A DNA stretch of 64,000 nt from positions 104,087 through 168,086 of the forward strand of contig CBFFRP010000020.1 of assembly GCA_965644295.1 (NCBI GenBank), in the 5' to 3' direction. A program made the translations under genes and the position numbers. Each line of letters begins with the position of its first letter. Within the stretch, counting starts at the first letter, position 1. Of this stretch, positions 25,377-64,000 are shown piece after piece. The DNA is from Paraphysomonas bandaiensis (Eukaryota; Protista; Chrysophyceae). The notes beneath the pieces were generated by a model. It saw only the letters and a list, made by a program, of their open reading frames with translations. It was not told the DNA's origin and did no database searches.

Positions 25377-25389
25377 GTATACACTCAAA

Positions 25390-41561: not shown

Positions 41562-41824
41562 GTGTGATCAGATGTATATTCGCTGGTTTCAATTAGTATA
41601 AAGTAAAGTAAGTCTAAAGCTGTAGTACCATGAGCTGCTTTTGCCTTCTAACGTGATATTATCTATTAGAAGAGTGGTATAAAATTCTAGACGCTTTATA
41701 GAATTCTGTTACTATAAGTAGTAAAGGTCCTATTCCATAGAGTAGTGGCAGCGATAGAATAGCTTGAATTAGAGCTATTCACTTGAAGCGTTTGCTGTCT
41801 CAGCAGATGCAGCCTTATGTATCT

Positions 41825-41950
41825 TACAATTTAACTAACTAGTGCTTAACTCTGATATCCTACTATTTGGCGCTACGAAAGCTGCTTGTGCGTCACAGCA
41901 AGCACCAACTACTTTCTCTCCATGTCCTCAAGGTGAACAGCCCGGAAAAG
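41825..41950 (-). repeat. Unclassified dispersed repeat family, copy 4 (partial)
   Basis: TTTAACTAACTAGTGCTTAACTCTGATATCCTACT...AGCTGCTTGTGCGTCAC...AAGGTGAACAGCCC matches the reverse complement of the 13.2-kb and 28.8-kb copies. Confidence 0.65.
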
Positions 41951-42045
41951 GTGCGAGTCCGCCTTTGTTAGAGTTTTTAAAACCAATTAATTTAATTGGC
42001 AACTCAATTAATTGTTATGCTAACATGCTAACCGGTACTCTACTA

Positions 42046-42628
42046 CAGATCCTGGGAAACGTTAGTGGCAGGCTTGCGTAATAATTAATTGGTTTTCAAT
42101 TTATTGGCAATTTTGATTATTCGGTTTTGAAAGTGATAATTGCAATTATTATTATTGGTAATTGTTGCTATTTGTTTACTTAAAGACAACCGAAAGCGCA
42201 AAAAAACACGCATCAAACTTCCAACACGATATACGATATTCGATATTCGTACAGCACTACCAACATTTATGAGAGGTTGTTTAGCAGAGCTAAGATTGCT
42301 GTGACTAGATTTTTGCAAGCGAATATAACCTAGACACCTTGAAATGTGAAAATGTTAGTGTTTCTTTGGCTGAGATTATTGTTCAGAAAGTTATTCTAAA
42401 ATCTATCAATAAAATTAAAGCCAATTAATTGGCAATTATTGCCAATTAATTGCATTGCCAATAATTCGATGCTTGATTAATAATTGCAATTATTATTGTT
42501 GGACACTAGTCACCAATTGTTACGCAAGCCTAGTTAATGGCCCATTCACCATTAATGGGTGTCCAGAGCCCCCTGTAACTTTAATGGCAATTAATGAAAT
42601 ATGTACCATTAACAGTTTCCAGGCCCTG
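42046..42628. mobile_element. hAT MITE (same family as 28886-29040) containing a nested element
   Basis: Ends CAGATCCTGGGAAACGTT... and ...CCATTAACAGTTTCCAGGCCCTG; perfect 8-bp TSD CTCTACTA (42038-42045 and 42629-42636). Confidence 0.85.
42069..42532 (+). mobile_element. Internally deleted hAT element nested in the MITE
   Basis: TIR (C/T)AGGCTTGCGTAA(T/C)AATT; 8-bp TSD GTTAGTGG/GTTAATGG; interior matches the 25020-25370 transposase 3' end. Confidence 0.85.
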
Positions 42629-45800: not shown

Positions 45801-47371
45801 TAATTGAAAATTAGTACAACGATCTGCCCTATACCTCATTAAAATGAAATTGAAGCTTTTCATTGGCATAGTTGATACATAATTGTTCAAATGAATTCAC
45901 TTCGAAGACTTCAAAGCCAAAAATGTCGAGTATACCTATAGTAAATGGAGCAGACTGGGTTTTTAAAGTGTCATTTACTTTCCTGTCACATATATTAGAA
46001 AAAAGTGTGAGATTTGTAGTATTGCAACATACAATATAATCCAATCGAACATATTGCTGTATAGTGCTTTGGCCAAGGTATCCTTGCTGTCTAGAGCTTG
46101 CGAAGGATTTAACTTAATACTCACAACACTCCCTCTCCCAACTTGAACACGCTTCTCCGTTAGTGCATACTTAAAGGAATCGATTTGAAGTCCCAGCATA
46201 TCGCAACTGATTTCCATCGCCTGTTGGGCAGATGAGTTCACTTCAGACGACCCCTCGGCTTTTCCAGCGGAAAAGCTTATGTTGCCTATCCATAGGACGG
46301 CAGCAATAATGAGCAGAATCTGGTTTTGAATATCAGTACTGAACTGTAACGTATCCATGGCTTGCTTTACTTCTGTGAAGTCCGAGGCATCGTCCACCCC
46401 ATCGATGGTGTAACAGCCTGTGGAATTTAAGTACGCATAGTTTTCACAAGGAAGCAGCTGACATCGGGCCTTAAACTCGTCATTAGCACCAGCAAGTAGC
46501 TGATAAAACATGTGATAATTGCGTTCTCCTGTGCTTTGGGAAACAATACGACTCTTCTCCAATAGGTAATTTACTATCTCACATCCTTGAATTCTGAAGT
46601 TATGATCGAAATTCTGATAGTGCCAACGCACAAATTACATAAGCTAATAACATGATCAATATGCTACTTACAACTTTCATCCATTTCCCAAATCTACTGC
46701 TATTATTGTTTCTCAATGTCTTTGCATTTCCAAGAGCTTCAAGTAGAGGGTTGCTTTGCAAAATTTTTTCCTCAATGCCAGGCTCGGAATTTTGTTTACT
46801 CTTAATACCAGGTGCAACATTCGCAAGATAATTTAGAACCTTTTTCGTAGTCTCTGTTTTACCGGCCCCAGATTCTCCACTAATTAGCACAGACTGATTT
46901 TTGAGATTTAGACGGAGTTGTTGGTACGCAGCGGATGCGGTTATAAATATATGTGGATATGAGTTCACGACGTTAGAAGCCTTCCTGATTTCATCTTCAC
47001 CATATATATTTAACCGTTCAAATGGGTTCACTGCAACTAGAATAGCACCAACATGTGTATAGATAACCTTTTTTTGGAATCTCTTTCTTGTGTGGTGCAG
47101 TATGGCACCCTGGAGACACGTTAACGTACATAAGAGTCATGAAGCACAGATACCATACCTCACTAAGCTCATCAAGATCTACTAGGTTATCAATCGTAGC
47201 ATCAATATGACTCCCACAGTGATCGAGTAGCTGAACTTGATTGGAACTCATTTTAATGTTTCCCATTTCAGTGCTGATCTCGGCATCAGAGGGCGTCAGT
47301 TTAATCACTGTCCCGCACAACCAGGCCTGCTCTTCATGAGGAACCCATACCTTGTCACCTATATCCACCAT
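42896..47371 (-). CDS. Myosin heavy chain (SH3-like N-terminus, motor, IQ motifs, helical and Ser/Pro-rich tail)
   Basis: GESGAGKT P-loop, [58 protein letters not shown] and IQKIIRG. Last exon ends at TGA 42896. Confidence 0.95.
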
Positions 47372-47914
47372 CTTAAATACTCACTGTGCTAAATCAAGCA
47401 TCATTGTTTATGTGAGCTCTATCTATGCAGGTGGTAAGATCTCGCTCACACTGTCAACTGTCGCTCGACTGTGGTTACTATACCAGCATAGTACTGCTGT
47501 ATAGTACTGCTGTATAGTACTGCTGTATATTCTACGAGTACTGCTGTACCATGTCTAGTTGTACTGTACGACCAGCTCGAACAAGACATCCTCATACAGC
47601 TGATACCAAAAATACAGTTGAGTACTGAGTACTACAGTCTTTTTGTCAGTGTGTCAACTCCACTATGGGCATATACTGTAGGTATACCGTATACAGAGTA
47701 CAGTAGGCAGCAGGCAGCAGTGTACTATGGTGCGACTGTCGTTCAGTGCTCTCTCTCACTCTAACTAATAGTGCCATTTGCTAGACCTGTTCTTTTACAG
47801 TATCCAGCCCACAGCTAGCAATGCAGTGATCGGTCATCTTGTATATATTTTCACTATTGCTAATGGTGATTGAGACTGGCAGTGCAGCTGTGTAACTCAC
47901 ACTATCTGAATGAG

Positions 47915-49159
47915 ATGAGACAGATCGTCATATATACAGTTGTCGTCGTGTTAACTCTGTGGGCTGCAATTCATTTTACAGTCCTCTCTGGAAATATGTC
48001 TCATAACAGAGCGGTGGGAGGCTCGTCACAAAGGCTGGACAAACTAATGGAGGAGGCAAGCGCAACAATAGCAAAGCTATCGAAAGTGAACTCCTCTTCT
48101 TTGGGTGATGCGGATGTGAGAAGATGGCACCACGATCAAGCGAAGATCAAGCAAGAAGTTCTTAACTTTCAAAACTCTAATGCTGAATTAGAAAAAAAAT
48201 TGCAGCACTGTGAGTTGGAACTGGCGACATCGGGCCGATGCTCTCATGACAGTTCTGGTGGAGGGCAAAACGTGCTTGATAAGTGGCTTGTAATTGGCAT
48301 CCCGACAATAGGGCGGAGAAATAATGAAGACTATCTTCTCACATCTTTACGCGCCATCGCTGCCCAGCTCCCATCCAGCCCGTCTGATTTACTATATGGT
48401 AAGGTACTCGTGGTAGTGGTAAGCATGGCCCCTAGCCCAGACGCGCACAAGAGATATCTTGAAGCGAAGGCCGAATTTACTGCTGCCCATAATCCAAAAC
48501 GCATTTACTTTGAATTTCACGATCATGCTGCAGCTGACGAGAACCCTTACCCAGGAAAGACTGATCGAGGCACACCCAATAAACCTGGATATATGGTACG
48601 CAAGCAAACGAGAGATGTTGTAAAAGTGATGCGAGTATGTGACAAGAAAGCGAGGTACTACTTGTTTATGGAAGATGACATGGTCCTATGTCCCTCGGGC
48701 TTTACGACTATACAATATATGCTCAACAAAGCTTCAGTGTATCATCCCAACTGGTTGGCCATTAGGGCCTCCTACGGCATGAACGGCATATTCATGCATC
48801 AACACGATTTATCTGTGTTTGCGGCCTACCTGACGAAGCATCAAGCTCGACGCCCCCCGGATCATTTGGTGGTTGAGTGGTTTGCCGGTGAGACAGCAGA
48901 GAGTCGAGCACACAAAGGAAATAGAGCAAACATAGGTTTCAGATACAATATATTTGATCACTTGGGATCGGTGTCCACTCTCAGGGCGAGCGCCTCACCG
49001 GGTTACTTACGCTGCTACGATGAGCTCCTCTCGCCTACTGTCTTTGAAGTAGAAGCTTTTAATAAGAAGCAGTGTCCAGCTGACGATATATGGCCCTGTG
49101 ATGTTGACAAAAAACTTAGGTCACCTCGTTTGGATTTTTCGTCACTCAAGAAGCAGTAG
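47915..49159 (+). CDS. MGAT4/GT54-family N-acetylglucosaminyltransferase, type II membrane protein
   Basis: N-terminal TM anchor, coiled stem, LVIGIPTIGRRNNEDYLLTSL, KQTRD, YYLFMEDD, FDHLGSVSTL. Intronless. Confidence 0.82.
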   Translation: MRQIVIYTVVVVLTLWAAIHFTVLSGNMSHNRAVGGSSQRLDKLMEEASATIAKLSKVNSSSLGDADVRRWHHDQAKIKQEVLNFQNSNAELEKKLQHCELELATSGRCSHDSSGGGQNVLDKWLVIGIPTIGRRNNEDYLLTSLRAIAAQLPSSPSDLLYGKVLVVVVSMAPSPDAHKRYLEAKAEFTAAHNPKRIYFEFHDHAAADENPYPGKTDRGTPNKPGYMVRKQTRDVVKVMRVCDKKARYYLFMEDDMVLCPSGFTTIQYMLNKASVYHPNWLAIRASYGMNGIFMHQHDLSVFAAYLTKHQARRPPDHLVVEWFAGETAESRAHKGNRANIGFRYNIFDHLGSVSTLRASASPGYLRCYDELLSPTVFEVEAFNKKQCPADDIWPCDVDKKLRSPRLDFSSLKKQ

Positions 49160-50341
49160 CCCATTACTTCAGTCTTGTCGAGGGTATGTTGAGTAGTTTT
49201 TGTTGTACACTTTCGTCAGTAGCGTAGTAATATGATTTTTTTAAACGAAATTTTCAGTCGTTCTCACTTATTCGTCATAGAATCTTCTGCTCTGAGGAAT
49301 GCTATTCGTTGGGACTGCATACTCTATATCTATATATTTGCTACGGTGATGTATTCTGACGGATTTTAGTGGATATTTGTATAGTTATGATGTGAACACA
49401 GTTTGAATCAGATTTTGAGTACAGTACAATGGTAGATACTTTAACTGCTTTATTGAGACGATAGTTTCACAGATTAACGAAATGACGACTGAAATTTTAC
49501 ATACGTAGTATGGCTCAGGGCTCTGCAAAAATATCTTGATTGGTGAACTGGTCAAAAATTCTATCAATATTGTTTCTGTTAAAGTAGTTCACAATATATA
49601 TTGATATGGAAAGCTTCTTAACTGTAAAGTGCAGAATATAGGTCCATGTATCACGTATTCTCTTTGCCTTCCACTTTCCAGCGTAGTGGGTTTGGTTAGT
49701 TTAGTTACCCTGCTATCTGTTATCATGTACTATGTGATAATGACTATAGTACTAAAAATAGATTCTATGGATGTGTTTACGTGCTTACATTCGGTAATGA
49801 TACTAATATATTGCAATAGTATTGTTGGTCCGGTTTAACACCTTCATCAATATTATTGATGACATGATGCTATAGCATTGCCATATATTGTTCCATATCT
49901 CTGATATTGCTGAGATATTGTAACACCTGCGTTTGTACATATACTTTACACGTCGCTGAAATGCTAAGACACACACAGAGAGAGGGGGGGGGGGTCTTCG
50001 ACCCTAGCCGTGTTAACCGTGACCATAAAAACTATTAATTTACACCAACCCTTACCCCTATGGTATCGCTGTGTATCACGTACAAGTGCTTCCAATATTG
50101 TACATTACATTTTTTTATACACTTTTTTACATAAAAAATGTCGTGTCACCTTTCACAATAAAAAATGCAAAAAAAATGTTATTTTCACAAATTTTGCAAC
50201 AGTATACACTACATTTTTTACAACATTTTTCTTAAAAAAAAACTTTTTTCTAAAAAATAAATATCAGAAATAAATATTTTCAACAAAAATGTCAAAAAAA
50301 ATGCAATCAAAATAAAATAATACTATACATATTAACCCCAG

Positions 50342-50405
50342 CGATCAACCGACCCTATTAACCAAACGATCAACCGACCCTATTAACAAACGATAGACCA
50401 ACCCT
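50342..50405 (+). repeat. Direct repeats of ~25 bp in the presumed terminal region
   Basis: CGATCAACCGACCCTATTAAC(C)AAA twice, plus a degenerate third copy CGATAGACCAACCCT. Confidence 0.85.
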
Positions 50406-50495
50406 GACTTAAACACCGAACAATTACAACAGATAGACGGAACAACAGACCTGTTTAACACTATATATAGACATGCCGTGATTTTACTCCCTGTT

Positions 50496-50548
50496 TTACA
50501 TATGTAAGAATATAAAATAATTAAAAAAAAATATATAGTTATATTATA
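50496..50548 (+). promoter_or_regulatory. Viral promoter cassette, duplicated at 51394-51447
   Basis: Palindrome TTACATATGTAA followed by AATATAAAATAATT..AAAAAAATATATAGT..ATATTATA directly before the ATG at both loci. Confidence 0.75.
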
Positions 50549-50980
50549 ATGTCAAAAGAATTAAAATATTTTAGTTGTTGTGAAAATGTTGATTCCGAGC
50601 GTAACGGTAAGTACTACTACAAACATAAAAAGTACATTCATAATGATCCATTTGACTGTCTAAAACATAAGTTAAATAGGCCAGCTGATGAAGTCAATGA
50701 TATAATAAGCAAACGGTTTGAAAAGGGTTTTTTAAGTAGCAATTTTTTTACTTTTAGACCAGTAAACAATACACCTGAATGTTACGATTGGCATGAAAAA
50801 TTTATTATTAAATCAGGTTTAAGAGAAAACGAATGTGATGATGTTCAAGATGAATTTTATCTTAAAAATAAGTTTTGGGAATCAGTTGTTTATATCATTG
50901 AAAATGACGGCGATAAAGAGAAAATGGAAACGGATAAGTGGGTATATTCAATGAATGCTATTGATAAACTAACGTTTTAA
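50549..50980 (+). CDS. PLV hypothetical protein (143 aa)
   Basis: ORF preceded by the conserved viral promoter motif; AT-rich codon use. Confidence 0.75.
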   Translation: MSKELKYFSCCENVDSERNGKYYYKHKKYIHNDPFDCLKHKLNRPADEVNDIISKRFEKGFLSSNFFTFRPVNNTPECYDWHEKFIIKSGLRENECDDVQDEFYLKNKFWESVVYIIENDGDKEKMETDKWVYSMNAIDKLTF

Positions 50981-51019
50981 AAACATTATAGAATTATTTT
51001 TTTGTAATGATACATTATA

Positions 51020-51349
51020 ATGTCAAAGGCCGAAAGTAATAAATTTTTCTTTATGGAAATGGAAGGTAAAATTTTTAGTGTTAAACGTGATCACAAAACA
51101 AACGTACAGGACGAAATAGAACAAGGCAAAAAGGAAATGAACATTTTAATAGATAAACAGAATAGCATAAAAGAAGAATTATTAAAACTTAACAATAAAA
51201 TAAGTGATAAAAAAATGTCTTTGTTAACAAAGAGGCAGCTATTAGAATTATACCGCGGCAAGAGACGCATACCGTGCTTGAATTTATTCAAAAAAAATGT
51301 TACCGATGTTTATATTGATGATGACACAGACAGCGACGAGGACTGTTAA
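51020..51349 (+). CDS. PLV small coiled-coil protein (paralog of 51448-51732)
   Basis: ATTATA-ATG context; MEGKIFSVKRDH..VQDEI..LLTKRQLLELY. Confidence 0.75.
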   Translation: MSKAESNKFFFMEMEGKIFSVKRDHKTNVQDEIEQGKKEMNILIDKQNSIKEELLKLNNKISDKKMSLLTKRQLLELYRGKRRIPCLNLFKKNVTDVYIDDDTDSDEDC

Positions 51350-51447
51350 CAGCAATGAAACATTGACCATTAAATTATAATTTATTTCAATTATTACATA
51401 TGTAAAAATATAAAATAATTTAAAAAAATATATAGTCATATATTATA

Positions 51448-51732
51448 ATGAGTGAGTATTTATTAAAGTTGAAAGGTGAAGTATACAGTATTAGAAAAAC
51501 GCATATGCCAAAAATTCAGGAAGAGATAAGGAATTTAGACAGAGAAATAGAAGATATGAAAATTACATTATCAGAACTTCAGAAACAAAAGAAAGAGTTA
51601 CAAGTAGAGCTATTAAATGAACGGCAATTAATCATATATGAAAATAAAGACGAAGATAAAAGGACTGAATTATTAAGAAAATATGATTTTCTACACGGTG
51701 AATATCGCAGTGATTCTGTAGGATGGAAATAA
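51448..51732 (+). CDS. PLV small coiled-coil protein (paralog of 51020-51349)
   Basis: Preceded by the promoter cassette; LKGEVYSIRKTH..IQEEI..LLNERQLIIY. Confidence 0.75.
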   Translation: MSEYLLKLKGEVYSIRKTHMPKIQEEIRNLDREIEDMKITLSELQKQKKELQVELLNERQLIIYENKDEDKRTELLRKYDFLHGEYRSDSVGWK

Positions 51733-51774
51733 AATATTATAAAAAAATGCAACTGATAAACTGATAAGGTAAAT

Positions 51775-51817
51775 TAAGGGATAAAAATCCCTAAATTTTC
51801 GGGGAAATTATCCCTTA
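51775..51817 (+). terminator. Intergenic hairpin (putative transcription-end signal)
   Basis: Perfect 10-bp stem TAAGGGATAA / TTATCCCTTA, extended by an inner TCCC/GGGA pairing. Lies between the terminal ORF cluster and the capsid module. Confidence 0.6.
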
Positions 51818-51857
51818 GATGTAAAATATATAAATATATTATGTGATATACTTATAT

Positions 51858-52088
51858 ATGGACGGCCTTGAATGGGAAATAAACTATGATAATTATGAAT
51901 TTCCAAAAAAAAATATTATAGACTTAGACAGAGTGATTAACTTAGACACACCAAAATTAAACAGAAATAATAATATAGATACAGACATGTTGACTTATGA
52001 TTTTGCAGAAATAAAAATATCTAATAATGTTAATGGAGAAAATACAGATTGTTCTAAACAGCAAGACAGCAAACCAATACCTAAATAA
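51858..52088 (+). CDS. PLV small hypothetical protein (76 aa) overlapping the minor capsid start
   Basis: ATG 51858 after TATAT, in frame with the track ORF 51843-52088. Confidence 0.5.
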   Translation: MDGLEWEINYDNYEFPKKNIIDLDRVINLDTPKLNRNNNIDTDMLTYDFAEIKISNNVNGENTDCSKQQDSKPIPK

Positions 52089-52764
52089 TAAAACTACTGA
52101 TTGTATTTTTATATTACCAAAGATAGATGTTAAACGACGTCATAAAGCCTATATATCAGTAATTGATGCCTCTATCCCATATTCATTTTATAATGTTAAT
52201 TCAACCAATAACACACTGAATTATACATTAAATAGTATCCCATATTCACTTACAATTACAAAAGCCAATTATAATATTAGAACTTTAATAAGTTTTTTAC
52301 AGTCCAATTTAGAGCCAGGATTTACAATAACTTATAACTCATCAACTAATAAATTACAATTTACCCATAGTACTTATGATTTTTCTTTTTCAAATACTTC
52401 AACCTGTTTTGAATTATTAGGATTTGAAGATAATACAACCTATTATTCAGATTCATTAATATTATTATCAACAATTGGTATAAATTTATTTACAGTAAGA
52501 AACGTTTTAATAGCATCGTCAAATTTTGTTTTAAATAATATAAATAGTGCCACACCTAATAAAGCCTCTATTATTACCTCTGTACCTGTTGATGTTAACG
52601 CAGGATCTATTATTAATTATAAAAATATTAATAATATTAAGAGCTTAGTACATGATATACATAATATAAATACTCTACATGTCCAATTATTAGACCAAGA
52701 CGCAGATATATTAGAATTAAACGGTTTACATTGGTCTTTAAATTTATTATTAACTATTGAATAA
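52027..52764 (+). CDS. Minor capsid protein (penton, single jelly roll)
   Basis: ISVIDASIPYSFYNVNSTNN, ITKANYN, ITYNSSTNKLQF, ELLGF, SVPVDVNAGSIINY and LHVQLLDQD..LELNGLHWSLNL match the PLV/virophage penton pattern. Start may be ATG 52033. Confidence 0.85.
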   Translation: MLMEKIQIVLNSKTANQYLNNKTTDCIFILPKIDVKRRHKAYISVIDASIPYSFYNVNSTNNTLNYTLNSIPYSLTITKANYNIRTLISFLQSNLEPGFTITYNSSTNKLQFTHSTYDFSFSNTSTCFELLGFEDNTTYYSDSLILLSTIGINLFTVRNVLIASSNFVLNNINSATPNKASIITSVPVDVNAGSIINYKNINNIKSLVHDIHNINTLHVQLLDQDADILELNGLHWSLNLLLTIE

Positions 52765-52794
52765 AAAATATTTCTCTCAATATAGTATATATAC

Positions 52795-53235
52795 ATGTCA
52801 AAACTAGGCAAAAAGCTAAATCGTAAATTTCGTAAACTAGGTCGTAAGGCCGATCACAGAATACATAAACTAGGACAAAAAACACACGACGTATTAGACA
52901 AGGTTCAGAGTGGAGTAAATAAAGGACTTGATAAATCAGCAAAGGCAATTAACGTAGCAGATAAAATATTAGGCGTCGGTGATAAAACTATACACGCTAT
53001 TAATAAAGCAGGATTAAATACAATGCCCGTTGTTGGATCAGCATCTAGACTATTGGAAGCAGGATTACACGAAGGACATAAAGGAGTACATAAGCTACAT
53101 AAGCTACACAATAAAGCCGATAAACACAGTAAACAAGCATTTAAAAAGGCTCATAACGCAGGTAATAAATTAGAAAAACACAACACAAGAAAAGCTTTAG
53201 CTAAGTTAACACAAGATGACAGCACATTTATATAA
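52795..53235 (+). CDS. Highly basic Lys/His-rich protein between the capsid genes (candidate core or membrane-lytic protein)
   Basis: MSKLGKKLNRKFRKLGRKADHRIHKLGQK..., amphipathic helices, position between mCP and MCP. Confidence 0.7.
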   Translation: MSKLGKKLNRKFRKLGRKADHRIHKLGQKTHDVLDKVQSGVNKGLDKSAKAINVADKILGVGDKTIHAINKAGLNTMPVVGSASRLLEAGLHEGHKGVHKLHKLHNKADKHSKQAFKKAHNAGNKLEKHNTRKALAKLTQDDSTFI

Positions 53236-53283
53236 ATTATATTTTATTATACTATAAAAAATATTTATCTATTTATAGTATAT

Positions 53284-54633
53284 ATGTCAGGATTACCAAA
53301 AAACGTATTATATACAAATAATATAAATTCAAGTTATGCGCGTAATTATCAGAATAATATAGCTCCACAAAATGGTTTGGGGCCATATGGTGCAGGAGAG
53401 ACCATAATTATTAATATTCCTACCGGTCGTAATCTCGTAATGTCTGGTGCTGATTCACTTTTAAAATTAAGCTTAATAGTAAACACAGCAACAACTACGG
53501 CGGTTTCAGAATTCGTAAGACTAGATAAAGCCGGTATTCATTCCCTAATTTCTAGAGTGCGAGTATTTCATGGCTCTACTTTACTTTCAGATATTCAGAA
53601 TTATAATAATCTAGTCGGTGAGCTCATGGCTTTGCAACAGTCTAACGACTCTTTTATTAACAAACACACAATTTTATCAGGAACGGAAAGTTTCAGTATT
53701 GTTGACAGCACAACAAGCACAAACGAGGGTTTAATTGTTGGTGAAAGACTTAATGAATTCACACAAGTTGCAGATGGGGGCAGTACAACTAAACGATATT
53801 ATACAGTACCAATAATGAATTTTTTAAGCTACAGTGATAAATATATTCCACTGTTCGCAATGACCGGCGCACCTTTACGACTAGAAATAGTTCTGGTTAA
53901 TAATCCATTAGAGGGCATTTGTTGCGATAAAGCCATAGATTCAATAGCTATTAATGACGTTGAATATGTTTGTAATTTTATGGAGTTATCAGATGACGCA
54001 ATGAATAAAATTAATTTGGCATCAAATGGACCTTTAAGGTGGGTTGTACAAGATTACAGAAATTATTCACATACTGGAAATATTGCCGCTAACGTTGAAC
54101 TTAGTGTTCCCGTACCCGCTAAATATAACTCTTTAAGATCTCTATTTTTCAGTATGCGTGATAAACACGCTGGAGCAGTCACCTATTTCCCTCTGTCATC
54201 AAATCATTTCGGTCTAGAGTCATACAGTGTTAGATTAGGTAGTAAGACCGTACCAACTAAAGCACCTAGTTGCCTTCCTGAATTTTTCGGCGAATTGATC
54301 AGAGCAATTGGAAGCGTAAGCGATTTGAATCATGAACCAAGCATTAATATAAATACTTATGATATGCAAGCGTCAGCAGCCAATAGCGAGACAGCAGCCG
54401 ATTATGACGGGTGTGCAGTATCATCCAACTTTTATTTAGGTTTAGATCTAGAAAGTTACAGCAGCTCAGGCATGGAAACAGTTTACCAGGGTTATAACAG
54501 TAGCACTGACGATATATTTTTTATGCCTCGTTTTTCCTCAAGTGCCCCCACTGTGACCGCACGCATAGATACATACGCTTATTTTGATCAAGTCATTTTG
54601 ATTGAAAACGGTTTTGCAACATTGCAATATTAA
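53284..54633 (+). CDS. Major capsid protein (double jelly roll, PLV type), intact 449 aa
   Basis: IAPQNG..Y.AGETIIINIP, IHSLISRVRVFHGSTLLSDIQNYNNL, KYIPLFAM..LRLEI, SLRSLFFS, FYLGLDLE, YAYFDQVILI. Size and synteny with the penton gene agree. Confidence 0.9.
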   Translation: MSGLPKNVLYTNNINSSYARNYQNNIAPQNGLGPYGAGETIIINIPTGRNLVMSGADSLLKLSLIVNTATTTAVSEFVRLDKAGIHSLISRVRVFHGSTLLSDIQNYNNLVGELMALQQSNDSFINKHTILSGTESFSIVDSTTSTNEGLIVGERLNEFTQVADGGSTTKRYYTVPIMNFLSYSDKYIPLFAMTGAPLRLEIVLVNNPLEGICCDKAIDSIAINDVEYVCNFMELSDDAMNKINLASNGPLRWVVQDYRNYSHTGNIAANVELSVPVPAKYNSLRSLFFSMRDKHAGAVTYFPLSSNHFGLESYSVRLGSKTVPTKAPSCLPEFFGELIRAIGSVSDLNHEPSININTYDMQASAANSETAADYDGCAVSSNFYLGLDLESYSSSGMETVYQGYNSSTDDIFFMPRFSSSAPTVTARIDTYAYFDQVILIENGFATLQY

Positions 54634-54716
54634 ATTTATAAAAAACCTTTAGATTTTTAAAAAAATAAAAAATTAAAAAATTTATTATTTAAAAAATAAT
54701 ATATATTTGTATATTA

Positions 54717-57700
54717 ATGAGTACAAAAGAGAGTTTTGAAGAGTTTGATTTAGAACACCTTGATAACCTGACTTATGAACAGTTGTAACTTTTCTGTGCC
54801 CGCAGATGACTCACAAACCGTGACTCAACTCTGAATGGACCAAGAAAAGATGATCTCTTGTCTAGACTCTACAACCCACCAAAATAGTATCCGCCAGCGG
54901 GCTGCGATACTGTCCAGGGCGCAACGACGGGCGCACTGCCAGAAACACTAACAAACCGTAGGTGCTCTTTAAGAAAAGTAAATTATAAAGTCAGTGACAA
55001 GAATGAGCAAACACCCATCTCGTTCAACGTAGATCAACACTACACTACGATCAACACTTCACACTCGAAAAACAATATTCACGTACTAAAACCAATATTC
55101 ACATACGAAAACTTCGACTATCTACGAAATCACGTATTTTGTACTAAAACTTCGAAGTTCTGGACTTCAGTCCAAATCAAATGTGAATCGCCGTCAGAAA
55201 CTGAAAAACGTATCTCAGCTACTAAACTGAAAACCTCGAATGTCGTAAACTGATAAAGGTAAGTCCCAAATACAGTGAATATACCCTGTATATGACAACC
55301 TCTATATGCATATGTATACCATATATATACCATATACTGCTCCAGATATATGCGATATATACACACTATATACAGCACAGTATTCTATATACAAATACAC
55401 GCAGTGTATACTGCTGCGTGACACTACCCTCTTTTTCCTTCCAACGGATAAGAGATTCCGGAAATTAGGAAAATTCTAAATTAAGAGAGGATATTGGGAA
55501 ATCTGGCACAGACGGCGGAGTCTACCAGAACCATGGTGTCAGGGTTAAAATCTTGTGTAGTTCCATAGTTCTGGATAGGCTGACCATTCAAAAGTAGAGT
55601 TAAAGAGAGAACAATACACATCAATAGTGATCCTTTTGCGGCCCGCCCAACGCTTATAGACACATTGAACTACATAAAGAGTATCATATGCATTAGGTAA
55701 TTCTAAAGCGTCATAGAAGTCTGCACCCCACGCTCGAAGATTAACAAAGACAACGTCTCCAGGTATGACAGTGGATATAACACACTTCTTGAGTTTAGTC
55801 TTCTGTTGCACTGCTTCCTTTGCAGTAAAACGTAAGGGAAACAATTCAGGGACACTGAAAATATATTCATGAAAAGATTCACTTGTCGCAAGATCAGTAG
55901 AATATGGCATCCACAACAACGATTGATCGGAGAAGAGAACTCTGAAATCCATAGTAGTTCTTTTTTCGGGGTCCCCTCTATAAGCCACCACTTTGTCAAG
56001 AAAAAATTGCCTATAGTCAATCATTGCTATGCGAAAAGCCTCCTCCTTGCTACCAAAGAATGGCTTCAACCAGGACATATGTAACGTTACATCAAACCGC
56101 ATTACTAAATGAGTACAAATAACATCGGCCTTGTACGTGGATACTACTTCATACGGTCCTTTGAATCGAGGATATAATTTGGACGGCTTATGTTTCGTTA
56201 CATCCAGTTTAAACAAAACAAGCTGGCCTGGTTGATATTGATTCATTTTCTCTGCTGGGGTTTTGGACATACGTTTATTCTGAATTTTCTTCTGAACTTC
56301 ACACGCAATTTTCCTGATAGCTTTAAGGTTATCATTGAAATTGGAAATATAAGTCGAAGAAGCAAATTCATCTGAAGAACTGTCAGGGATATGAAAATAC
56401 TTTGAATCCATTGTTCCAAACGTAAACTCAAAAGGTGAAAGACCCGTCTCACTTGAAATTTCATCGTTGAGAATGAATTGTATCAACAAATAGCATTCTG
56501 GGTCACTCCAATTTTCTAATCTTTCGTCATGAACCAATGCACTAAGAAAACGCAATAATTCCCGATTACTTCGTTCCACCATGTTGGACTCACGTCTATT
56601 CACTAACGACATTCTAAAGCGGACTCCAAACCATTTCAGGAGTAACTGAACAACCCTAGCTGTGATATTCGAACCTGGATCCGATACCATCACTTCAGAA
56701 ATCCCATATGTGACAAAGTAACTGAACAAAGCACGTGCCACTCCCTCTGCTGAGTAATTACGAGCTGGATATATTCCTACTAGGCGAGATGGTAATTGTT
56801 TCACCACATGAATACAACAATAACCATTAGCATCTACCGGAGTAACAGTCAATGTATCGAAACCCACAAAATGTCTGCAATTATCAAGATTTAATGCTCT
56901 TATCGGTGCTTGCAACGATGTACTCATATCATAACCTAACTTTTGACAAATAGGACATCGATCAATAAAATCTTGGATAATTTCTGTTGTCAAGGTATGA
57001 CCCGGAAATACCTTACTAAGTTTCAACCATGTTCTCTTAGCTCCACGATGACCCATTCTACCATTGTGTACTAGATCAAAAGCTTCTTTTAGAGACTTTG
57101 GCTGTAAATTCTGATTAGCTAACTCATCCAAGGCTTTGACTAGTTCCTCTGGGAATTCTGAAACACAAGCAAGATCTTCTGCCTCCGCTGACAACATACC
57201 ACTCTCATCATACATAAAAAGTTGGTCTTCCGACAACAGACTAGAATTCTCATACTCCACTCCTAGACACAATTCAATATCTGAACATGAATCTTGAAGA
57301 CACATATCTAACAACATGACACAAGAAGCTGCTCTCTCCTGTCCCATTCTTGATAACCAATCCGCGAAACGATTTAGTTTACCTTTGAAATGTAACCAAT
57401 CCATATCAAAGTTTTGCATGAACATTCTCATTCGAACTATTCGGTCAACCACTGAAATTTCCATCCACTTTAGATTTGCATGATCCGTCATAATCGTAAA
57501 GTGTTTTCCTCTCAAGTAGTACGACAACTTAAAGATAGAATAGAATATACCAAAACATTCCTTGTTTATAGTTGACCATTTGAAAGCAAGATCTTAAAAT
57601 TTTTTAGAAACCATAGAAAGAAATCAAGTACATTCTCTTGTTGAGATATTGACACACAGACTCAATACCCACATCATAGATAGCCTTTTTTGTCGACTGG

Positions 57701-60700
57701 AAATCTGTATAACACTTACATGGAAAAGGAAACCTGGAAATTATATAAAACATCAAGTTAACTGCAGAACTTCCATGTTGAACTTTGACTCATTGATTCC
57801 CACATAGTTACTCAGAACAATGTATAACCACCAGTTTTGATACACTCATAGAATCAATTTTCAACTCAGGAATACATAGCATCTGATAGTTCTCTGACAT
57901 TAGAGTTCGAACAACAGACTTTCTATCACATCACTGACACAGGATCTCACTCATTACCCTGAACTGTTTGAGAAGTGACAACCTCGAAAGAATTTTACAT
58001 TCCAAGAAAATAATATAATATCATCAAACTCAAACAACTTATTTTGAATCAAGGAATTCAAAATTGTAGGTACATTTCAAATACCATCACAATAGCACTC
58101 TGGAAGTTTAGATACCACCGAACAAAATATTTTCAGTAACCTTCTTGTACTCAACACTTCAAGTTTAAATGCAAAGAACCGTTGAAAAAACTAACAACAT
58201 CTCTCTTGTCTTTTGAAGAAAACATCACTTTCACTCGCATCACATTCTGAATCTCACAATATCACCACCATACTGACAAGCAATGTAATCGGAGATAACT
58301 CCTGATGAAGAACAATGAATGTCGAAAACACTCCCTCACAGAAGAATCTGCTCTCACTTGATTCAAAATTTCAATTGGCAATAGACATTCAAACTCTCTC
58401 AATACAATTGCAGCACAATACCAGACACATGTGCAACAACACTGTCCACAGAATGAACTATGTATATCATCGAACAATGTATCCAACTTGGAAAACTTAT
58501 GAACGATAATGTCACGAGAAGATTCACGTAATTTGACAAGATGGCTCCCATTTAATCTGTAACACGTTTGAAACATTTTCAAGAAACTTCAGAAACTCCT
58601 CTTGCAACCATCATTGAAATGAAATTAAACAGTATGACGTTACATCATTGGCCAACATACTATTGAACTCACTGACAGAATTTTCGCTCTTAACTCTCAG
58701 TCTAACTCAATACAACTTTAGTATTTTGACACCTCACTTTGCAAAACACAAACTTCAACTCTCAAAACAAATCTGAACTTCAAACAATTGAACAACTCAA
58801 TAGTAATGGACTCTCAAATCGAAAACATTAATCATATATATCTCATCGAAATTATTGAACAACAAATAAATCAAACTGAACCAGAAAAGAAACAATCGCT
58901 AATATTGAATAGCTCATTCTCGATTATATACAATATATAGTATTATATAAGTATCATCGGTATATAGTATAGGTAAAATGATATCACGTATGTCGAATCT
59001 GTACAATTTGAAACACAGGCTCATTGAACTCTCCATTCCAGGAATACAAAGAAAACTCCACCGGCCTTGCTTCTACAATATCTTAATATATATGAACATA
59101 AAATATGATACAAATTCACAACTGACTCTCGCACCCACATCGAACACATTCACATTGACGCCATGAAACATCACTCAATCATTTGAACACTGCACCCCAT
59201 GTAGACACTCCACAACAAACTGCTGTTGACTAGCTTCTCTGCTCAACACACACTTGATTCTAAGAACATAGTATTCACTGACAACATATGTTCGAATTGA
59301 CTCTGGTGTAGACACTCATCACAACAAACTGAATTTGAACTGACAAAATATCGGACAAAATATTTACAATACAATACAATCTCTCCATCGCAAGCATTGC
59401 ACAACGAATCCTCTGAGACAGAAACTCATGAAGACATTCGTTACAATACAACACTATCTCACATCCAAACCGAAATGAAATGAATAGGCACACTGATGAT
59501 AATGTAACTCCATTAGTAATACAACATCAACATCTGGTACAACCACATTTCATTATTCCAACAGGTTGAACTTAGAATTGAAAAAGACACACCGATTTGG
59601 CAATAGGCGGTCCAGGACCATGCTCATCGCACAACACAAGTTCTTTAAAACACACGTCTAGTTTCTCAACCATCATTTTACAGTAAAGAAAACTGACCAC
59701 TTCAAGCTGACTCAATGACAACACAACATGCTCTTCCATAATCTGTCCTAGCACTGCACAATAGCTTAATGGAATCAATGTACCACTAGCAACCATGGCA
59801 TTCCATATGGCTAATTGAACGATTGAGACAACAGATGAATCACAGCCAATATCGTCCTTGACAGTAGGTTCCTCATGTGAAAGCTGATTCACTGAAACAA
59901 CCGGTACAGAAGAACAACCATTGAATTGCACAACAGGTCCATCGATCTGCTGCTCCTGATCAATCTTTGAGACAACATTGCTTATCATCTTCTCAACAAG
60001 TATCACAACATCTGACTCAACATGCACGGGGCTAATGCACTGTTCCTTGACACACATAACAGGGCATTCCACTTCTGAGTCCACGTTCTGAGGGGAATTT
60101 GAATCCTTATCATAAGAATCAGGAAACACTGAAAAACTATTCTCCACCTCAGCAGGTAATTCCATAATATCAGAGACAACAATATCTTGCATTAACAAAG
60201 GCTCCACCTTGGCAGAATTGATACTCTCAATATGAACATCCGAAGGCTGATTCACAACGCAAACAACTTCCTTGACTTTTGAATCATCAAATGGAATTTG
60301 GGAAATTTCCTTTACAGGAAGAGGTGAAACTTTTTCTTTGGAAACAACTGAAGCTACTGGTGAAGTCCTCCGAGATCTTATCTCTTCGACTGCTGTAAGA
60401 CGTTGAGTAACTTCCACTCGAAACTCATTGAAATTCTCCTCCTGCCTTAGCTGTTGCTGATTAAGCTGATGCATGTCCTCCCGAAGCTGTTGCTGAATAT
60501 CGTCCCGAAGCTGCTGATTTTGCTGTTGAATCTCATCCCGAAGCTCGTCTCTTAGTTGCTGAAATTGTTGACTGAACATGTTGACCATGTCTTGGAAGCC
60601 TTGAGGCTCCATGGCTCAATCACACGAAAACTAAACACACTTATCTCTTGGGCTCAATATATATTAACTTGGTACAAATATACTGCTAAGCTAAGCTAAG

Positions 60701-62816
60701 TAATATTACTGTAACTTTTCTGTGCCCGCAGATGACTCACAAACCGTGACTCAACTCTGAATGGACCAAGAAAAGATGATCTCTTGTCTAGACTCTACAA
60801 CCCACCAAAATAGTATCCGCCAGCGGGCTGCGATACTGTCCAGGGCGCAACGACGGGCGCACTGCCAGAAACACTAACAAACCGTAGGTGCTCTTTAAGA
60901 AAAGTAAATTATAAAGTCAGTGACAAGAATGAGCAAACACCCATCTCGTTCAACGTAGATCAACACTACACTACGATCAACACTTCACACTCGAAAAACA
61001 ATATTCACGTACTAAAACCAATATTCACATACGAAAACTTCGACTATCTACGAAATCACGTATTTTGTACTAAAACTTCGAAGTTCTGGACTTCAGTCCA
61101 AATCAAATGTGAATCGCCGTCAGAAACTGAAAAACGTATCTCAGCTACTAAACTGAAAACCTCGAATGTCGTAAACTGATAAAGGTAAGTCCCAAATACA
61201 GTGAATATACCCTGTATATGACAACCTCTATATGCATATGTATACCATATATATACCATATACTGCTCCAGATATATGCGATATATACACACTATATACA
61301 GCACAGTATTCTATATACAAATACACGCAGTGTATACTGCTGCGTGACACAGTCCAAAGCTTACGTAACAAATTATTTTTTCCCACTTACAAACGGCGCA
61401 CATGCACTTAGAACAGGACATAAAAAATTTAGCATTATGGAACACAAAAAAGTTAAAGAAACGTATTTTAACAGAATGGATAAACGGATAGCAAAATATT
61501 ATTTCACTGAATTTAAAGGGCTTCGTAAAATGGTTTATGAGCTTGGCAAAGGTATATTCCCTGATAAAAAGAAATTAAATTTAGCCGCTCAGTTTGCACA
61601 TGACTATAAACCATATGAAGACTTTGATGATGAGAGTAAGGAAGGTGTACAGGCGTTTTTATCATATATTAAAGAAATATTGGCATCCAATGATCAGGTA
61701 CAATATGAATATTTATTAAAGTGGTTTGCCAATATGACAAAGGGTAATAAAAACGAATCTATCATTTTCCTAAAAGGTCCTCAGGGCATAGGTAAATCAA
61801 CCATATCCCTATTTATGAATACTTACGTACTTGGCCGTGACCTGTGTTTAGAAGCTGGCGCGGACGTATTGACATCTAAATTTAATTCAGATCTAGGAGG
61901 TAAATTATTTGTATATTTTGAAGAATTAGAAAAACAAAGCAGGGCTGATTGGGACGCAATCAATACTAAATTAAAACGATATACGACGAGCGACGTTTAT
62001 ATAATAAATCCAAAGCATGAGTCAACATATCAGGCTGCAAATATTAATAATTATTTAATTAATGCAAATTATAGTTTAAATGAAGAATGCGGAAGAAGGT
62101 ATTTTATTTGTGATGTTTGTTGTAAAAAACGTAATGACTTAAAATATTTTGGATGGCTACGTAATCTATGCTTTAATAACGAGGTAGGACATGCTTTTTA
62201 CTGTTATTTAATGGAATACAACACAGAAAAATTTTATAGTCAAAATTTCCCTATCACAAAAAACAAGTTAGACGCATACGCCAAGAGATTAGGAAGCGTT
62301 GAAATGTTTTTAAAGGATGAATTTGTATTAAAGAGATTGGATATAAATAATATACTTGTTAAAGAAATATTTAACCATTATATCCAGTATTGCACTCAAA
62401 ATAATATTAAACCAGTTAAACATACAATTGATTTTAATAAGGTCATGAGTGAATTAAATTTTATTCACAAAAAGAATAAAGATAGGCGTAATGTGTACAA
62501 TGTTACATTAGACGAATTAAATAAAGTTTCTGAATCTTTACATTGGGTTCATGAATTAGATGAATATGATGATGGCCCTGATGTAGAATATAATATTAAA
62601 GATAAAATTAAAAAACGTTGCAATACAAATACCATTACAAGCGCTATTAAAAAGATTAGCAATAAACAAAGCGATAAAACAGATGAAGATACAGATGATG
62701 ATACAGATGAAGATGAAGATGAAGATACAGATGAAGATGATGATGAAGATGAAACACCCCGTGTAAGTCAGAAGACAGTGAAAGATATAATGAAAACTTA
62801 CGGAATAAATATTTAA
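54717..62816 (+). CDS. SF3/D5-like helicase, interrupted after codon 22 by the LTR element (54717-54783 joined to 61354-62816 = 509 aa)
   Basis: Walker A GPQGIGKS, Walker B VYFEE, motif C INAN, GRRYF. MSTKESFEEFDLEHLDNLTYEQ joins SKAYVTNYFF in frame once the element and one TSD are removed. Confidence 0.9.
54784..55423 (-). repeat. 3' LTR
   Basis: TGTAACTTTT...GCGTGACA, identical by eye to 60710-61349. Confidence 0.95.
55424..55442 (-). other. Polypurine tract
   Basis: Minus strand GGAAGGAAAAAGAGGGTAG abuts the 3' LTR. Confidence 0.85.
55545..57620 (-). CDS. pol remnant: partial RNase H, integrase (HHCC, DDE, GPY/F), chromodomain-like and extra C-terminal domain
   Basis: WSTINKECFGI..FTIMTDHANL..ADWLSR (RNase H); H..GH..CPIC; FDTL / SDPGSN / VERSN; KLYPRFKGPYEV; LDKVVAYRG..FRVLF..WMP. 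In-frame TAA at 57594-57596; open for 660+ codons downstream of it. Confidence 0.88.
59572..60612 (-). CDS. Gag-position ORF (Gln-rich coiled-coil N-terminus)
   Basis: 346-aa ORF starting ~100 bp inside the 5' LTR boundary. No zinc knuckle recognised. Confidence 0.6.
   Translation of the reverse strand: MEPQGFQDMVNMFSQQFQQLRDELRDEIQQQNQQLRDDIQQQLREDMHQLNQQQLRQEENFNEFRVEVTQRLTAVEEIRSRRTSPVASVVSKEKVSPLPVKEISQIPFDDSKVKEVVCVVNQPSDVHIESINSAKVEPLLMQDIVVSDIMELPAEVENSFSVFPDSYDKDSNSPQNVDSEVECPVMCVKEQCISPVHVESDVVILVEKMISNVVSKIDQEQQIDGPVVQFNGCSSVPVVSVNQLSHEEPTVKDDIGCDSSVVSIVQLAIWNAMVASGTLIPLSYCAVLGQIMEEHVVLSLSQLEVVSFLYCKMMVEKLDVCFKELVLCDEHGPGPPIAKSVCLFQF
60710..61349 (-). repeat. 5' LTR
   Basis: 640 bp, identical by eye to 54784-55423. 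Confidence 0.95.
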
Positions 62817-62865
62817 AAAAATAAAAAATAATTTATTTAAAAAATTAATATATAAATATATATTA

Positions 62866-63120
62866 ATGAGAGATAAATTTATAGTAGAAATATATGATAA
62901 TAATAATAATCTGATTACATCACAACACTTTACATCCTATAAAGCAATAGCACAGGAATACGATATACAATATTCAGAAGCTAGGAAACTTAACGCTTTA
63001 TGTGAGTCACGTACAACATGTAAATACTTACATCCATCATTAAAGCGACTGATTAACAGAATAAAAATTTATGATATTAATAATATAAATAATTATGATA
63101 TTAAAAAAATAAAAATTTAA
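62866..63120 (+). CDS. PLV small protein, NUMOD1/HTH-like DNA-binding candidate
   Basis: VEIYDNNNNLITSQHFTSYKAIAQEYDI resembles NUMOD1. Conserved upstream motif TTATTTAAAAAATTAATATATA..TATATTA-ATG. Confidence 0.65.
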   Translation: MRDKFIVEIYDNNNNLITSQHFTSYKAIAQEYDIQYSEARKLNALCESRTTCKYLHPSLKRLINRIKIYDINNINNYDIKKIKI

Positions 63121-63152
63121 TTATTTAAAAAATTAATATATAGTATATATTA

Positions 63153-63485
63153 ATGGACAAATATAAGTTTTATAAGATTGATGAGAAGGACTTTAAAAAC
63201 TCAGTTGAAATTACGACCAGATTCAGACACAGAAAGAAAGGTAAAGAATTAGACGTTCCTGATATGCACTTTTTATATAATATGGTTGAGGAAAACTTAC
63301 CAGAAGATGCCAATATAATGGTTAGAGCGTTAAATGGTCATAGATACTTTACATTTAAAGGGTATACTAGTTACCAGCTGAACGTGCAGGATTTTGATGA
63401 CTATTATAAAAGCTCAGTCAAGAATACTGAGAAATTTGAGAAGTTTGAATTTATTGATATAACGGTGTTCATGTCTACGACATGA
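63153..63485 (+). CDS. PLV hypothetical protein (110 aa)
   Basis: ORF with the same upstream motif as 62866 and 63576. Confidence 0.72.
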   Translation: MDKYKFYKIDEKDFKNSVEITTRFRHRKKGKELDVPDMHFLYNMVEENLPEDANIMVRALNGHRYFTFKGYTSYQLNVQDFDDYYKSSVKNTEKFEKFEFIDITVFMSTT

Positions 63486-63575
63486 TCCATACGTTAACTC
63501 CTGTTTTTATGGAAAAATAAATAATTAAAAAATTAAAAAATTAAATATTTAAAAAATAATATATAGTATATATTA

Positions 63576-64000
63576 ATGAGCTATATATTATTTTGTCGTT
63601 TGCTTTCCGGTTTTAGAATATTTGACACAAGCGTTAAAGAATTTAAGACTATAAATAAATATCCTAGTGAACATCACAGCTTTGAATTAATGAAAGGATA
63701 TGAACCAACTGATGAAGACTTAAAAAGATACGCAGAGGATTTTAAAAAGTGGTGCGATGAACTAAAGGACCCTGAAAATTTTCTTACTATAGACTATTCT
63801 AATTATGTTTCTCATTCTTACGCAGTGAGAAATACATATAAACGCATGAAAAAGAATAAGTTTAAAAATGTAAAGGAAATAACATTTAGTAAAGTAACAA
63901 AAGCAGAACACTTTTATATGTCACAGTGCAATAATGGACCTTTAATGTACTGTCAGCAATATCAAGGGCCATGTTTTGGATATGATTACAGCCAGTATTA
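63576..64000 (+). CDS. Probable protein-primed family B DNA polymerase, N-terminal part (cut by window end)
   Basis: Open for 141 codons from ATG 63576. Ends ...FYMSQCNNGPLMYC..GPCFGYDYSQY, resembling the YxGG region and the start of PolB motif A (YDxxSxYP). Confidence 0.65.
   Translation, partial: MSYILFCRLLSGFRIFDTSVKEFKTINKYPSEHHSFELMKGYEPTDEDLKRYAEDFKKWCDELKDPENFLTIDYSNYVSHSYAVRNTYKRMKKNKFKNVKEITFSKVTKAEHFYMSQCNNGPLMYCQQYQGPCFGYDYSQY

What the first reader, a model, noticed from the sequence alone, without database searches (positions are those of the whole stretch)
49969..64000. Endogenous Polinton-like virus with an intact capsid module integrated in a protist chromosome
Seen: the sequence switches sharply from intron-rich host genes to AT-rich, intronless, single-strand ORFs with uninterrupted penton, basic protein, MCP, helicase and PolB-like genes. 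Known: PLVs and virophages integrate in protist genomes, and mavirus-like elements can reactivate on giant-virus infection. Inference: a recent, possibly reactivatable provirus, perhaps of an undescribed lineage. No packaging ATPase, protease or integrase is in the window; they may lie downstream.
Basis: partly seen in the sequence, partly recalled or inferred. Interest (0 to 1): 0.85.

Follow-up and report, generated by a model that had tools for sequence, protein, structure and literature searches.

The report
Protist provirus split by nested retrotransposon
This is a copy of a Polinton-like virus lying next to the genes of a likely marine protist; a likely recent retrotransposon has landed inside its DNA-unwinding gene and likely disables this copy, a known kind of nesting, although the virus's unusually short DNA polymerase may be an undescribed design.

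Summary
The 449-aa protein folds as a double jelly-roll capsid, the 245-aa protein is penton-like, and the last ORF begins a phi29-like protein-primed polymerase. The genes are not uninterrupted or single-stranded, though. A 6,566-bp Ty3/Gypsy-type LTR element (54784-61349, minus strand) sits 22 codons into the SF3 helicase gene; it has identical 640-bp LTRs, a 4-bp target duplication, and no reverse transcriptase ORF was found. The 532-aa 'helicase' ORF starts inside the LTR. A natural uninterrupted allele exists (P0150), and three DNA runs show many variant copies. This copy is therefore likely crippled or helper-dependent, while sister copies may be active. The host-virus junction was not bridged by any listed contig. 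Endogenous PLVs, nested retrotransposons, and exonuclease-poor polymerase plus separate SF3 helicase are all published. The possibly new part is a widespread ~400-aa polymerase family lacking the usual fused terminal-protein and vOTU domains, with a candidate stand-alone terminal protein gene just upstream (untested).

The parts
47915..49159 (+). Last host gene before the virus: MGAT4-like glycosyltransferase, single exon, 414 aa
   Evidence: Pfam PF04666 E 7.6e-15; exact protein held from an MMETSP source; covered by RNA contigs
49410..49968 (.). Multi-copy stretch left of the virus, likely a diverged host repeat; its edges are approximate
   Evidence: Single-copy flank contigs end at 49409 (X5) and 49597 (X1); summed depth jumps in bin 49341-49696; loose ends at 49553, 49795, 49805; no second copy in the window
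49969..50548 (.). Likely left terminal region (inverted-repeat arm) beginning with AC and AG dinucleotide runs and a G run; partner arm and target duplication lie outside the window
   Evidence: Sequence; non-coding, with three 19-25-bp direct repeats at 50338-50405; TIR status inferred
50549..51732 (+). Three small accessory ORFs (143, 109 and 94 aa) of no known family, variable among copies
   Evidence: no homologue in 95 loci; joints 50982>51376 and ~51745>50555 in other copies
51858..52088 (+). Small conserved ORF (76 aa) that follows the packaging ATPase in close relatives
   Evidence: tblastn to L076, L078, L080, L082, L088
52027..52764 (+). Minor capsid (penton) protein, 245 aa
   Evidence: Profile of 58 sequences hits PBCV-1 P1v1 at E 5e-6; DUF5901; homologue in 80 of 95 loci; not folded
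52795..53235 (+). Basic protein, 146 aa, pI 10.4; likely DNA-condensing core protein (inferred)
   Evidence: homologue in 32 of 95 loci
53284..54633 (+). Double jelly-roll major capsid protein, 449 aa, intact
   Evidence: AlphaFold2 pLDDT 91.1; Foldseek to iridovirus and PBCV-1 MCP E ~4e-18, TM ~0.6; 382 homologues
54717..54783 (+). 5' piece of the SF3 helicase gene (22 codons); the frame meets a stop on entering the LTR
   Evidence: 22 of 22 residues identical to the N-terminus of P0150
54784..55423 (-). 3' LTR of the nested retroelement (640 bp, TGT...ACA), preceded on its own strand by a polypurine tract
55545..57593 (-). Pol remnant: C-terminal part of RNase H followed by integrase (HHCC, DDE-region motifs, SH3-like)
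   Evidence: Pfam RT_RNaseH 9.9e-12, Integrase_H2C2, rve; Ty3-G Gag-Pol E 2.5e-14; motifs
57594..59571 (-). About 2 kb without a long ORF, where protease and reverse transcriptase would be expected
   Evidence: Three-frame translation is full of stops; longest open stretch 108 aa
59572..60612 (-). 346-aa ORF in the gag position; no family match
   Evidence: gag role inferred from position
60710..61349 (-). 5' LTR, identical to the other; its opposite strand holds an ATG (61218) in frame with the helicase 3' piece
   Evidence: 0 of 640 mismatches; 4-bp duplication CAGT at 54780-54783 and 61350-61353
61350..62816 (+). 3' piece of the SF3 helicase gene (DUF5906, Walker A at 61776)
   Evidence: Pfam E 1.8e-14; 97% identical to the 505-aa uninterrupted P0150
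62866..63120 (+). 84-aa ORF, syntenic with a 111-aa ORF in L067
   Evidence: blastp E 1e-5; exact protein in an 11-member cluster
63153..63485 (+). 110-aa ORF directly upstream of the polymerase; candidate stand-alone terminal protein (unproven)
   Evidence: Homologue in the same position in L067; strand-helix pattern judged by eye against the TP description in PMC11161782; not folded
63576..64000 (+). First 141 codons of a compact (~408-aa) protein-primed family B polymerase
   Evidence: 87% identical to full-length P0270; model pLDDT 95.6; phi29 polymerase Z 19.0, rmsd 4.9 over 338 residues

Best explanation
This is the left part of one copy of a multi-copy Polinton-like virus, likely integrated in the chromosome of a marine protist, whose helicase gene is split by a likely recent, likely non-autonomous Ty3/Gypsy-type retrotransposon that likely leaves this copy unable to replicate alone. 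Shown: capsid fold, penton similarity, SF3 helicase, phi29-like polymerase fold of the full-length allele, LTR anatomy, position of the break, an uninterrupted natural allele, many variant copies. Inferred mechanism: intact family members would copy a linear genome by protein priming, using an exonuclease-poor polymerase of about 400 aa and a separate helicase, as in mavirus, with the primer likely supplied by the 110-aa gene upstream; they would integrate with an rve integrase expected beyond the window and be packaged in a double jelly-roll capsid, likely after activation by a giant virus. The retroelement was likely copied by reverse transcriptase supplied in trans by an autonomous relative.
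For: MCP: pLDDT 91.1; best structural matches are iridovirus and PBCV-1 capsids. Penton. LTRs 0 of 640 mismatches, TG..CA ends, CAGT duplication, polypurine tract, RNase H-integrase order, Ty3-G match. P0150 matches both helicase pieces (22 of 22; 196 of the first 200) in one ORF. In the 3 DNA runs laid (X8 and X1 listed as DNA, X5 of unstated kind), summed contig depth over the virus is roughly 10 to 70 times that over the single-copy flank, with many variant sites and rearranged accessory genes; X1 matches the host flank with 0 differences over 5,597 bases. L067 has the same order helicase - small ORF - small ORF - compact PolB, followed by an rve integrase. A TATAGT motif lies within 25 nt upstream of 6 of 11 viral starts against 9 of 1,024 ATGs in the host part (motif picked by eye from the same starts).
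Against: Contig depth is not a copy number. The right end, target duplication, ATPase and viral integrase are unseen. The host is not identified beyond an MMETSP-held protein and marine metagenome hits. Terminal-protein identity of the 110-aa ORF found no profile support. The LTR supplies an in-frame ATG, so a fusion helicase is not excluded. Giant-virus dependence is by analogy only.
Confidence: 0.78

Rival explanations
1. This copy is still mobile: the LTR-derived ATG at 61218 gives a 532-aa fusion helicase, or sister copies complement it, and the virus carries the retroelement as a passenger.
For: ORF 61218-62816 is open and holds the whole ATPase domain. An in-frame ATG 40 or more codons before the LTR end arose in 1.7% of 5,000 shuffles. 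All other visible viral ORFs are intact. In Cafeteria, a virophage was recovered whose integrated form held an Ngaro element (PMC10945749, passages).
Against: Any in-frame ATG arose in 18% of shuffles, and the threshold of 40 was set after seeing the result. The ATG is on the LTR's antisense strand and lacks the A-rich viral upstream motif. An extra 6.6 kb would strain packaging (inference). Reactivated Cafeteria virophages lacked full retroelements (PMC10945749).
Confidence: 0.1
2. The family has lost its packaging ATPase and spreads as a helper-dependent or transposon-like element; the capsid genes are used only with another virus's motor.
For: In L076, L078, L079, L080, L082, L083 and L088 (7 of 7 close relatives with enough upstream DNA) the ATPase is directly upstream of the small ORF; here unrelated ORFs and the element's end are there.
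Against: In other relatives with the penton-basic-MCP block the ATPase lies 5 kb or more away (for example L028, L036, L037, L062). Only about 7.5 kb of viral DNA is visible, against contigs of 15-21 kb for many relatives.
Confidence: 0.07
3. The contig is a chimera or mosaic: host flank, repeat, virus copies and retroelement were joined by the assembler through repeats.
For: The junction lies in multi-copy, low-complexity sequence, and at several viral sites all contig depth in X1 shows another letter than the window. Such artefacts are described in PMC10120064.
Against: The exact 4-bp duplication and TG..CA ends inside a gene are a biological insertion signature; ORFs have no frameshifts; dropped rare variants explain the differing sites.
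Confidence: 0.05

Closest known systems
Endogenous Polinton-like viruses of protists (PMC10120064; Aquintoviricetes in bioRxiv 10.64898/2026.06.19.733378)
   Same: AT-rich insertion, double jelly-roll MCP, penton, helicase, pPolB, many variant copies per genome; Ty3/Gypsy elements inside or near PLVs were reported in Hydrurus, Synura and Dinobryon.
   Different: ATPase, integrase and right end unseen here; placement in a named MCP group not tested.
Mavirus and EMALEs of Cafeteria burkhardae (PMC8547959, PMC10945749)
   Same: Exonuclease-poor pPolB with separate SF3 helicase; nested ~6-kb retrotransposon, once reported in a primase/helicase gene; insertion near host repeats.
   Different: The MCP is PLV-like: Sputnik ranks 47th in the fold search and no virophage is among the top matches. 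The nested element is an LTR/DDE-integrase type, not tyrosine-recombinase Ngaro. Mavirus pPolB is TP-vOTU-palm in one chain.
pMVRE group 1, palm-retaining truncated pPolB with DUF5906 (PMC13215967)
   Same: Truncated pPolB plus DUF5906 helicase, the combination the paper gives for group 1.
   Different: No tree with its reference sequences was possible; the parts read do not describe a ~400-aa form with a separate terminal protein.
Ty3/Gypsy LTR retrotransposons, non-autonomous derivatives
   Same: TG..CA LTRs, target duplication, polypurine tract, RNase H then integrase.
   Different: No protease or reverse transcriptase ORF; no tRNA-type TGG start after the 5' LTR.

Membership tests
Polinton-like virus | Double jelly-roll MCP | tested here: met
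Polinton-like virus | Minor capsid (penton) protein | tested here: met
   Profile hit to PBCV-1 P1v1, E 5e-6; not folded
Polinton-like virus | A32-like packaging ATPase | tested here: inconclusive
   Not in the window; in 70 of 95 related loci; element runs off the window
Polinton-like virus | Terminal inverted repeats and target duplication | not testable with these tools
   Only one end is visible; no genome is held; the terminal pattern found nothing in metagenome contigs
Polinton-like virus | Integration in a host chromosome (junction-spanning molecules) | tested here: inconclusive
   Flank and virus occur in the same runs, but no listed contig bridges the junction
Named PLV MCP group (TsV, PgVV, GKS, Trimcap and others) | MCP clusters with the group's references | not testable with these tools
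   The tree holds only unnamed relatives; the preprint's HMM set could not be seen; motif search in one supplement was empty
Maverick-Polinton (Polintoviricetes) | Full-length pPolB with TP, vOTU and exonuclease domains | tested here: not met
   408-aa polymerase aligns only to residues 362-664 of the 694-aa fused relative
Maverick-Polinton (Polintoviricetes) | Cysteine maturation protease and own rve integrase | tested here: inconclusive
   Not in the visible part
Virophage (Virophaviricetes) | Virophage-type MCP | tested here: inconclusive
   Sputnik MCP matches only at rank 47, 11% identity, below giant-virus capsids; no tree with references
pMVRE group 1 | Palm-retaining truncated pPolB with motifs A, B, C | tested here: met
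   D137, K268, D366 invariant in 104 of 104 rows; phi29 fold; tested on allele P0270
pMVRE group 1 | DUF5906 SF3 helicase | tested here: met
   E 1.8e-14; gene interrupted in this copy
pMVRE group 1 | pPolB falls in the mavirus-containing clade | not tested
   No reference sequences in hand (one search found none)
Ty3/Gypsy LTR retrotransposon | LTRs with TG..CA, target duplication, polypurine tract | tested here: met
Ty3/Gypsy LTR retrotransposon | RNase H before integrase | tested here: met
Autonomous Ty3/Gypsy element | Protease and reverse transcriptase | tested here: not met
   No long ORF in 57594-59571

The most novel reading that the evidence does not exclude
This virus represents a widespread PLV replication module in which the protein-primed polymerase has shrunk to about 400 residues, shedding the terminal-protein and vOTU protease domains that eukaryotic pPolBs otherwise carry, while the terminal protein survives as a separate 110-aa gene just upstream: a minimal two-part, phage-like priming system re-evolved in a eukaryotic virus.
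Probability: 0.35. Interest if true: 0.65.

Novelty: new variant of a known kind. Interest (0 to 1): 0.45.

Why it matters
As a provirus it adds one more example to thousands known. Two things are useful. First, interrupted and uninterrupted alleles of a multi-copy PLV seem to exist for a host that is represented in MMETSP, so one can ask whether retrotransposons inactivate proviruses or ride in them. Second, PMC11161782 states that all eukaryotic pPolBs have extended N-terminal regions with a terminal-protein and/or vOTU domain; a family of ~400-aa polymerases without either would add a step to that scheme and offer one of the smallest protein-primed polymerases to assay.

Tried and rejected
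No whole genome was held, so the right end, ATPase, integrase and copy count stay open. Sequence searches of the MCP against Pfam, PHROGs, PDB and phage records gave no meaningful match; 43 of 106 aligned relatives hit Capsid_N. The terminal 25-mer matched nothing in metagenome contigs. Single-protein scans of viral contigs with the MCP, P0270 and the retroelement integrase found no relative; profile scans for the compact and the fused polymerase returned only contigs already held, so the terminal-protein alignment has 2 rows. Profile comparison of the 110-aa ORF with the fused polymerases gave probability 0.3% and an HMM scan nothing convincing: too shallow to decide. The complex prediction of P0270 with the 110-aa protein gave no verdict. 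The Atlas gave no answer. A chromodomain-like stretch at the integrase C-terminus was seen by eye but had no Pfam hit, so heterochromatin targeting was dropped as a claim. No self-priming complement was found for the primer-binding region. I rejected 49795-49805 as the viral end: by eye, the loose letters at 49795 resemble the window's own upstream bases, which points to diverged repeat copies. RNA run X15 has no cover over most viral bins; that is no evidence of silence. The organism behind the JACKZZ loci was not found. Earlier scan findings: nothing in 3 look-ups.
Full report
Observation. The window is eukaryotic up to about 49.2 kb: myosin, an MGAT4-like gene whose exact protein is held from MMETSP, and a GT..AG intron removed in an RNA contig. 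Runs holding the stretch 47000-56500 are four coded organisms and marine metagenomes (20 of 24 listed rows hold some part, 9 half or more). A marine protist host is inferred; its taxon is not established. GC is 40.9% before 49969 and 28-30% in the viral parts.

Capsid module. The 449-aa ORF has 382 homologues. Folded with 106 sequences it reaches pLDDT 91.1, and its best matches are iridovirus and PBCV-1 capsids (E 3e-18 to 4e-18, TM about 0.6). A 58-sequence profile of the 245-aa ORF hits PBCV-1 P1v1 at E 5e-6. The 146-aa protein has pI 10.4. Profile scans fetched 75 viral and 20 metagenomic loci (at least two contigs appear twice). Of these 95, 80 carry the penton, 70 an A32-like ATPase and 32 the basic protein. 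In a tree of 124 MCPs (full-length locus MCPs plus the best 40 database hits of 400 aa or more; no named references) the window's protein sits on a long branch with P0001, inside a supported clade of 54 that includes L076-L088.

Two identical 640-bp repeats lie at 54784-55423 and 60710-61349 (0 mismatches, 95% upper bound on divergence 0.47%). They have TG..CA ends, are flanked by a duplicated CAGT, and have a polypurine tract on the minus strand. Between them are a 346-aa ORF in the gag position, about 2 kb without a long ORF, and an RNase H-integrase remnant matching Ty3-G Gag-Pol (E 2.5e-14). This is a young Ty3/Gypsy-type element without reverse transcriptase, so likely non-autonomous. It lies 22 codons into the helicase gene: database protein P0150 (505 aa) matches the 5' piece at 22 of 22 residues and the 3' piece at 196 of the first 200. 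The apparent 532-aa helicase ORF starts at an ATG inside the LTR; any in-frame ATG arose in 18% of shuffles and one this far upstream in 1.7%, so chance is not excluded.

Reads. Four of the 24 listed runs were laid, on 44001-54660 only, all as contigs. X1 matches the host flank without a difference over 44001-49597 at depth 41; viral bins sum to 430-1,389. X5 shows 79 against 990-5,733, and X8 about 0-5 against 48-126. These sums are not copy numbers, but with many variant sites and joints that delete or reorder accessory ORFs they indicate a family of variant copies. A separate multi-copy stretch starts left of the virus (bin 49341-49696). No listed contig bridges 49969. The polyA RNA run X15 holds host gene contigs and three MCP contigs about 95% identical to the window; that is a weak hint that a sister copy is transcribed.

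Replication module. The last ORF is 87% identical to the start of P0270, 408 aa. P0270 has 1,102 cluster representatives at E up to 0.001 and 233 at 1e-30; among the best 150, median length is 418 aa, 119 are 370-470 aa and none exceeds 600 (some are fragments). Folded with 104 selected near-full-length rows it reaches pLDDT 95.6 and matches phi29 polymerase (E 1.3e-7; Z 19.0, rmsd 4.9, 338 aligned, against about 10 for RNA-primed PolBs). Catalytic D137, K268 and D366 are invariant. Relatives L080 and L025 encode ~700-aa versions, whose N-terminal part shows a vOTU-like Cys and His by eye; P0270 aligns only to residues 362-664 of L080's protein (probability 99.9%). The start at 63576 follows an AT-rich spacer with the shared upstream motif, so the short form looks real. 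L067 has the same gene order and a homologue of the 110-aa ORF directly upstream of its 404-aa polymerase. By eye this ORF fits the four-strand, two-helix terminal-protein pattern described in PMC11161782, but the profile test was empty. Loss of proofreading is inferred from size and by analogy to mavirus.

Mechanism and rivals. Most likely (0.78) this is an integrated family member disabled or made helper-dependent by the insertion. Rivals are continued mobility through a fusion helicase or complementation (0.10), an ATPase-less family (0.07) and assembly chimerism (0.05).

What is known. Protist genomes hold tens to thousands of such elements, and Ty3/Gypsy insertions in PLVs are reported (PMC10120064: parts 1-3 of 7 read, supplement list, term searches, one part of Table S2; that file is cut). 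Nested retroelements are also described in PMC8547959, PMC12220804 (passages and section 11), PMC10945749 and bioRxiv 10.64898/2026.07.28.741278 (passages). Truncated pPolB with DUF5906 is described in PMC13215967 (passages, parts 1-2 of 6). Domain architecture of pPolBs comes from PMC11161782 (passages, part 2 of 6, section 9). PLV classes come from bioRxiv 10.64898/2026.06.19.733378 (parts 1-3 of 5; its supplementary HMMs were not seen and could name the MCP group). PMC7805220 was seen as passages; PMC12721341 only as a listing. Two searches listed 3 and 2 papers on truncated pPolB, vOTU and terminal proteins; in what I read none describes a form lacking both domains, but unseen supplements of PMC13215967 and the unread PMC12721341 may. 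That terminal dinucleotide runs suit protein priming is recalled, not from a call.

Verdict. A real endogenous PLV of a known kind, not intact in this copy; the compact polymerase module makes it a modest new variant. Interest 0.45.

Noticed in passing
window 13106-13354, 25013-25672, 28693-29134, 41814-42601: Several diverged copies (78-93% alike, both orientations) of a host interspersed repeat; a short ORF at 24717-25133 looks like a decayed transposase end by eye, with no Pfam hit.
   Followed up: partly
window 7189-7391: Long near-perfect hairpin: 61-nt arms 92% complementary, extended by 37-nt arms; possibly a MITE.
   Followed up: no
window 32138-34445: 54-nt inverted repeats 2.2 kb apart with internal 12-nt repeats and a 36-nt tandem at 33339-33478; possibly a non-autonomous DNA transposon.
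   Followed up: no
window 38709-38834: 14-bp tandem array, about 7 copies.
   Followed up: no
L076, L077, L079, L083, L088, L090: Six contigs with one accession prefix carry related capsid modules (48-64% MCP identity); L077 and L090 abut eukaryote-like kinase sequence, suggesting another host with several endogenous, partly decayed copies.
   Followed up: partly
P0036 cluster; P0155, P0158: MCP and helicase homologues on contigs of 93-388 kb, two with the same lengths (123,732 and 93,253), suggesting linked integrated relatives in long host or giant-virus contigs.
   Followed up: no
P0289, P0305, P0312 and other longer polymerase homologues: N-terminal NUMOD4/HNH-like domains are fused to some compact polymerases.
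   Followed up: partly
L019/L020: One 32-kb viral contig holds two inverted copies of an ATPase-penton-basic-MCP module.
   Followed up: no
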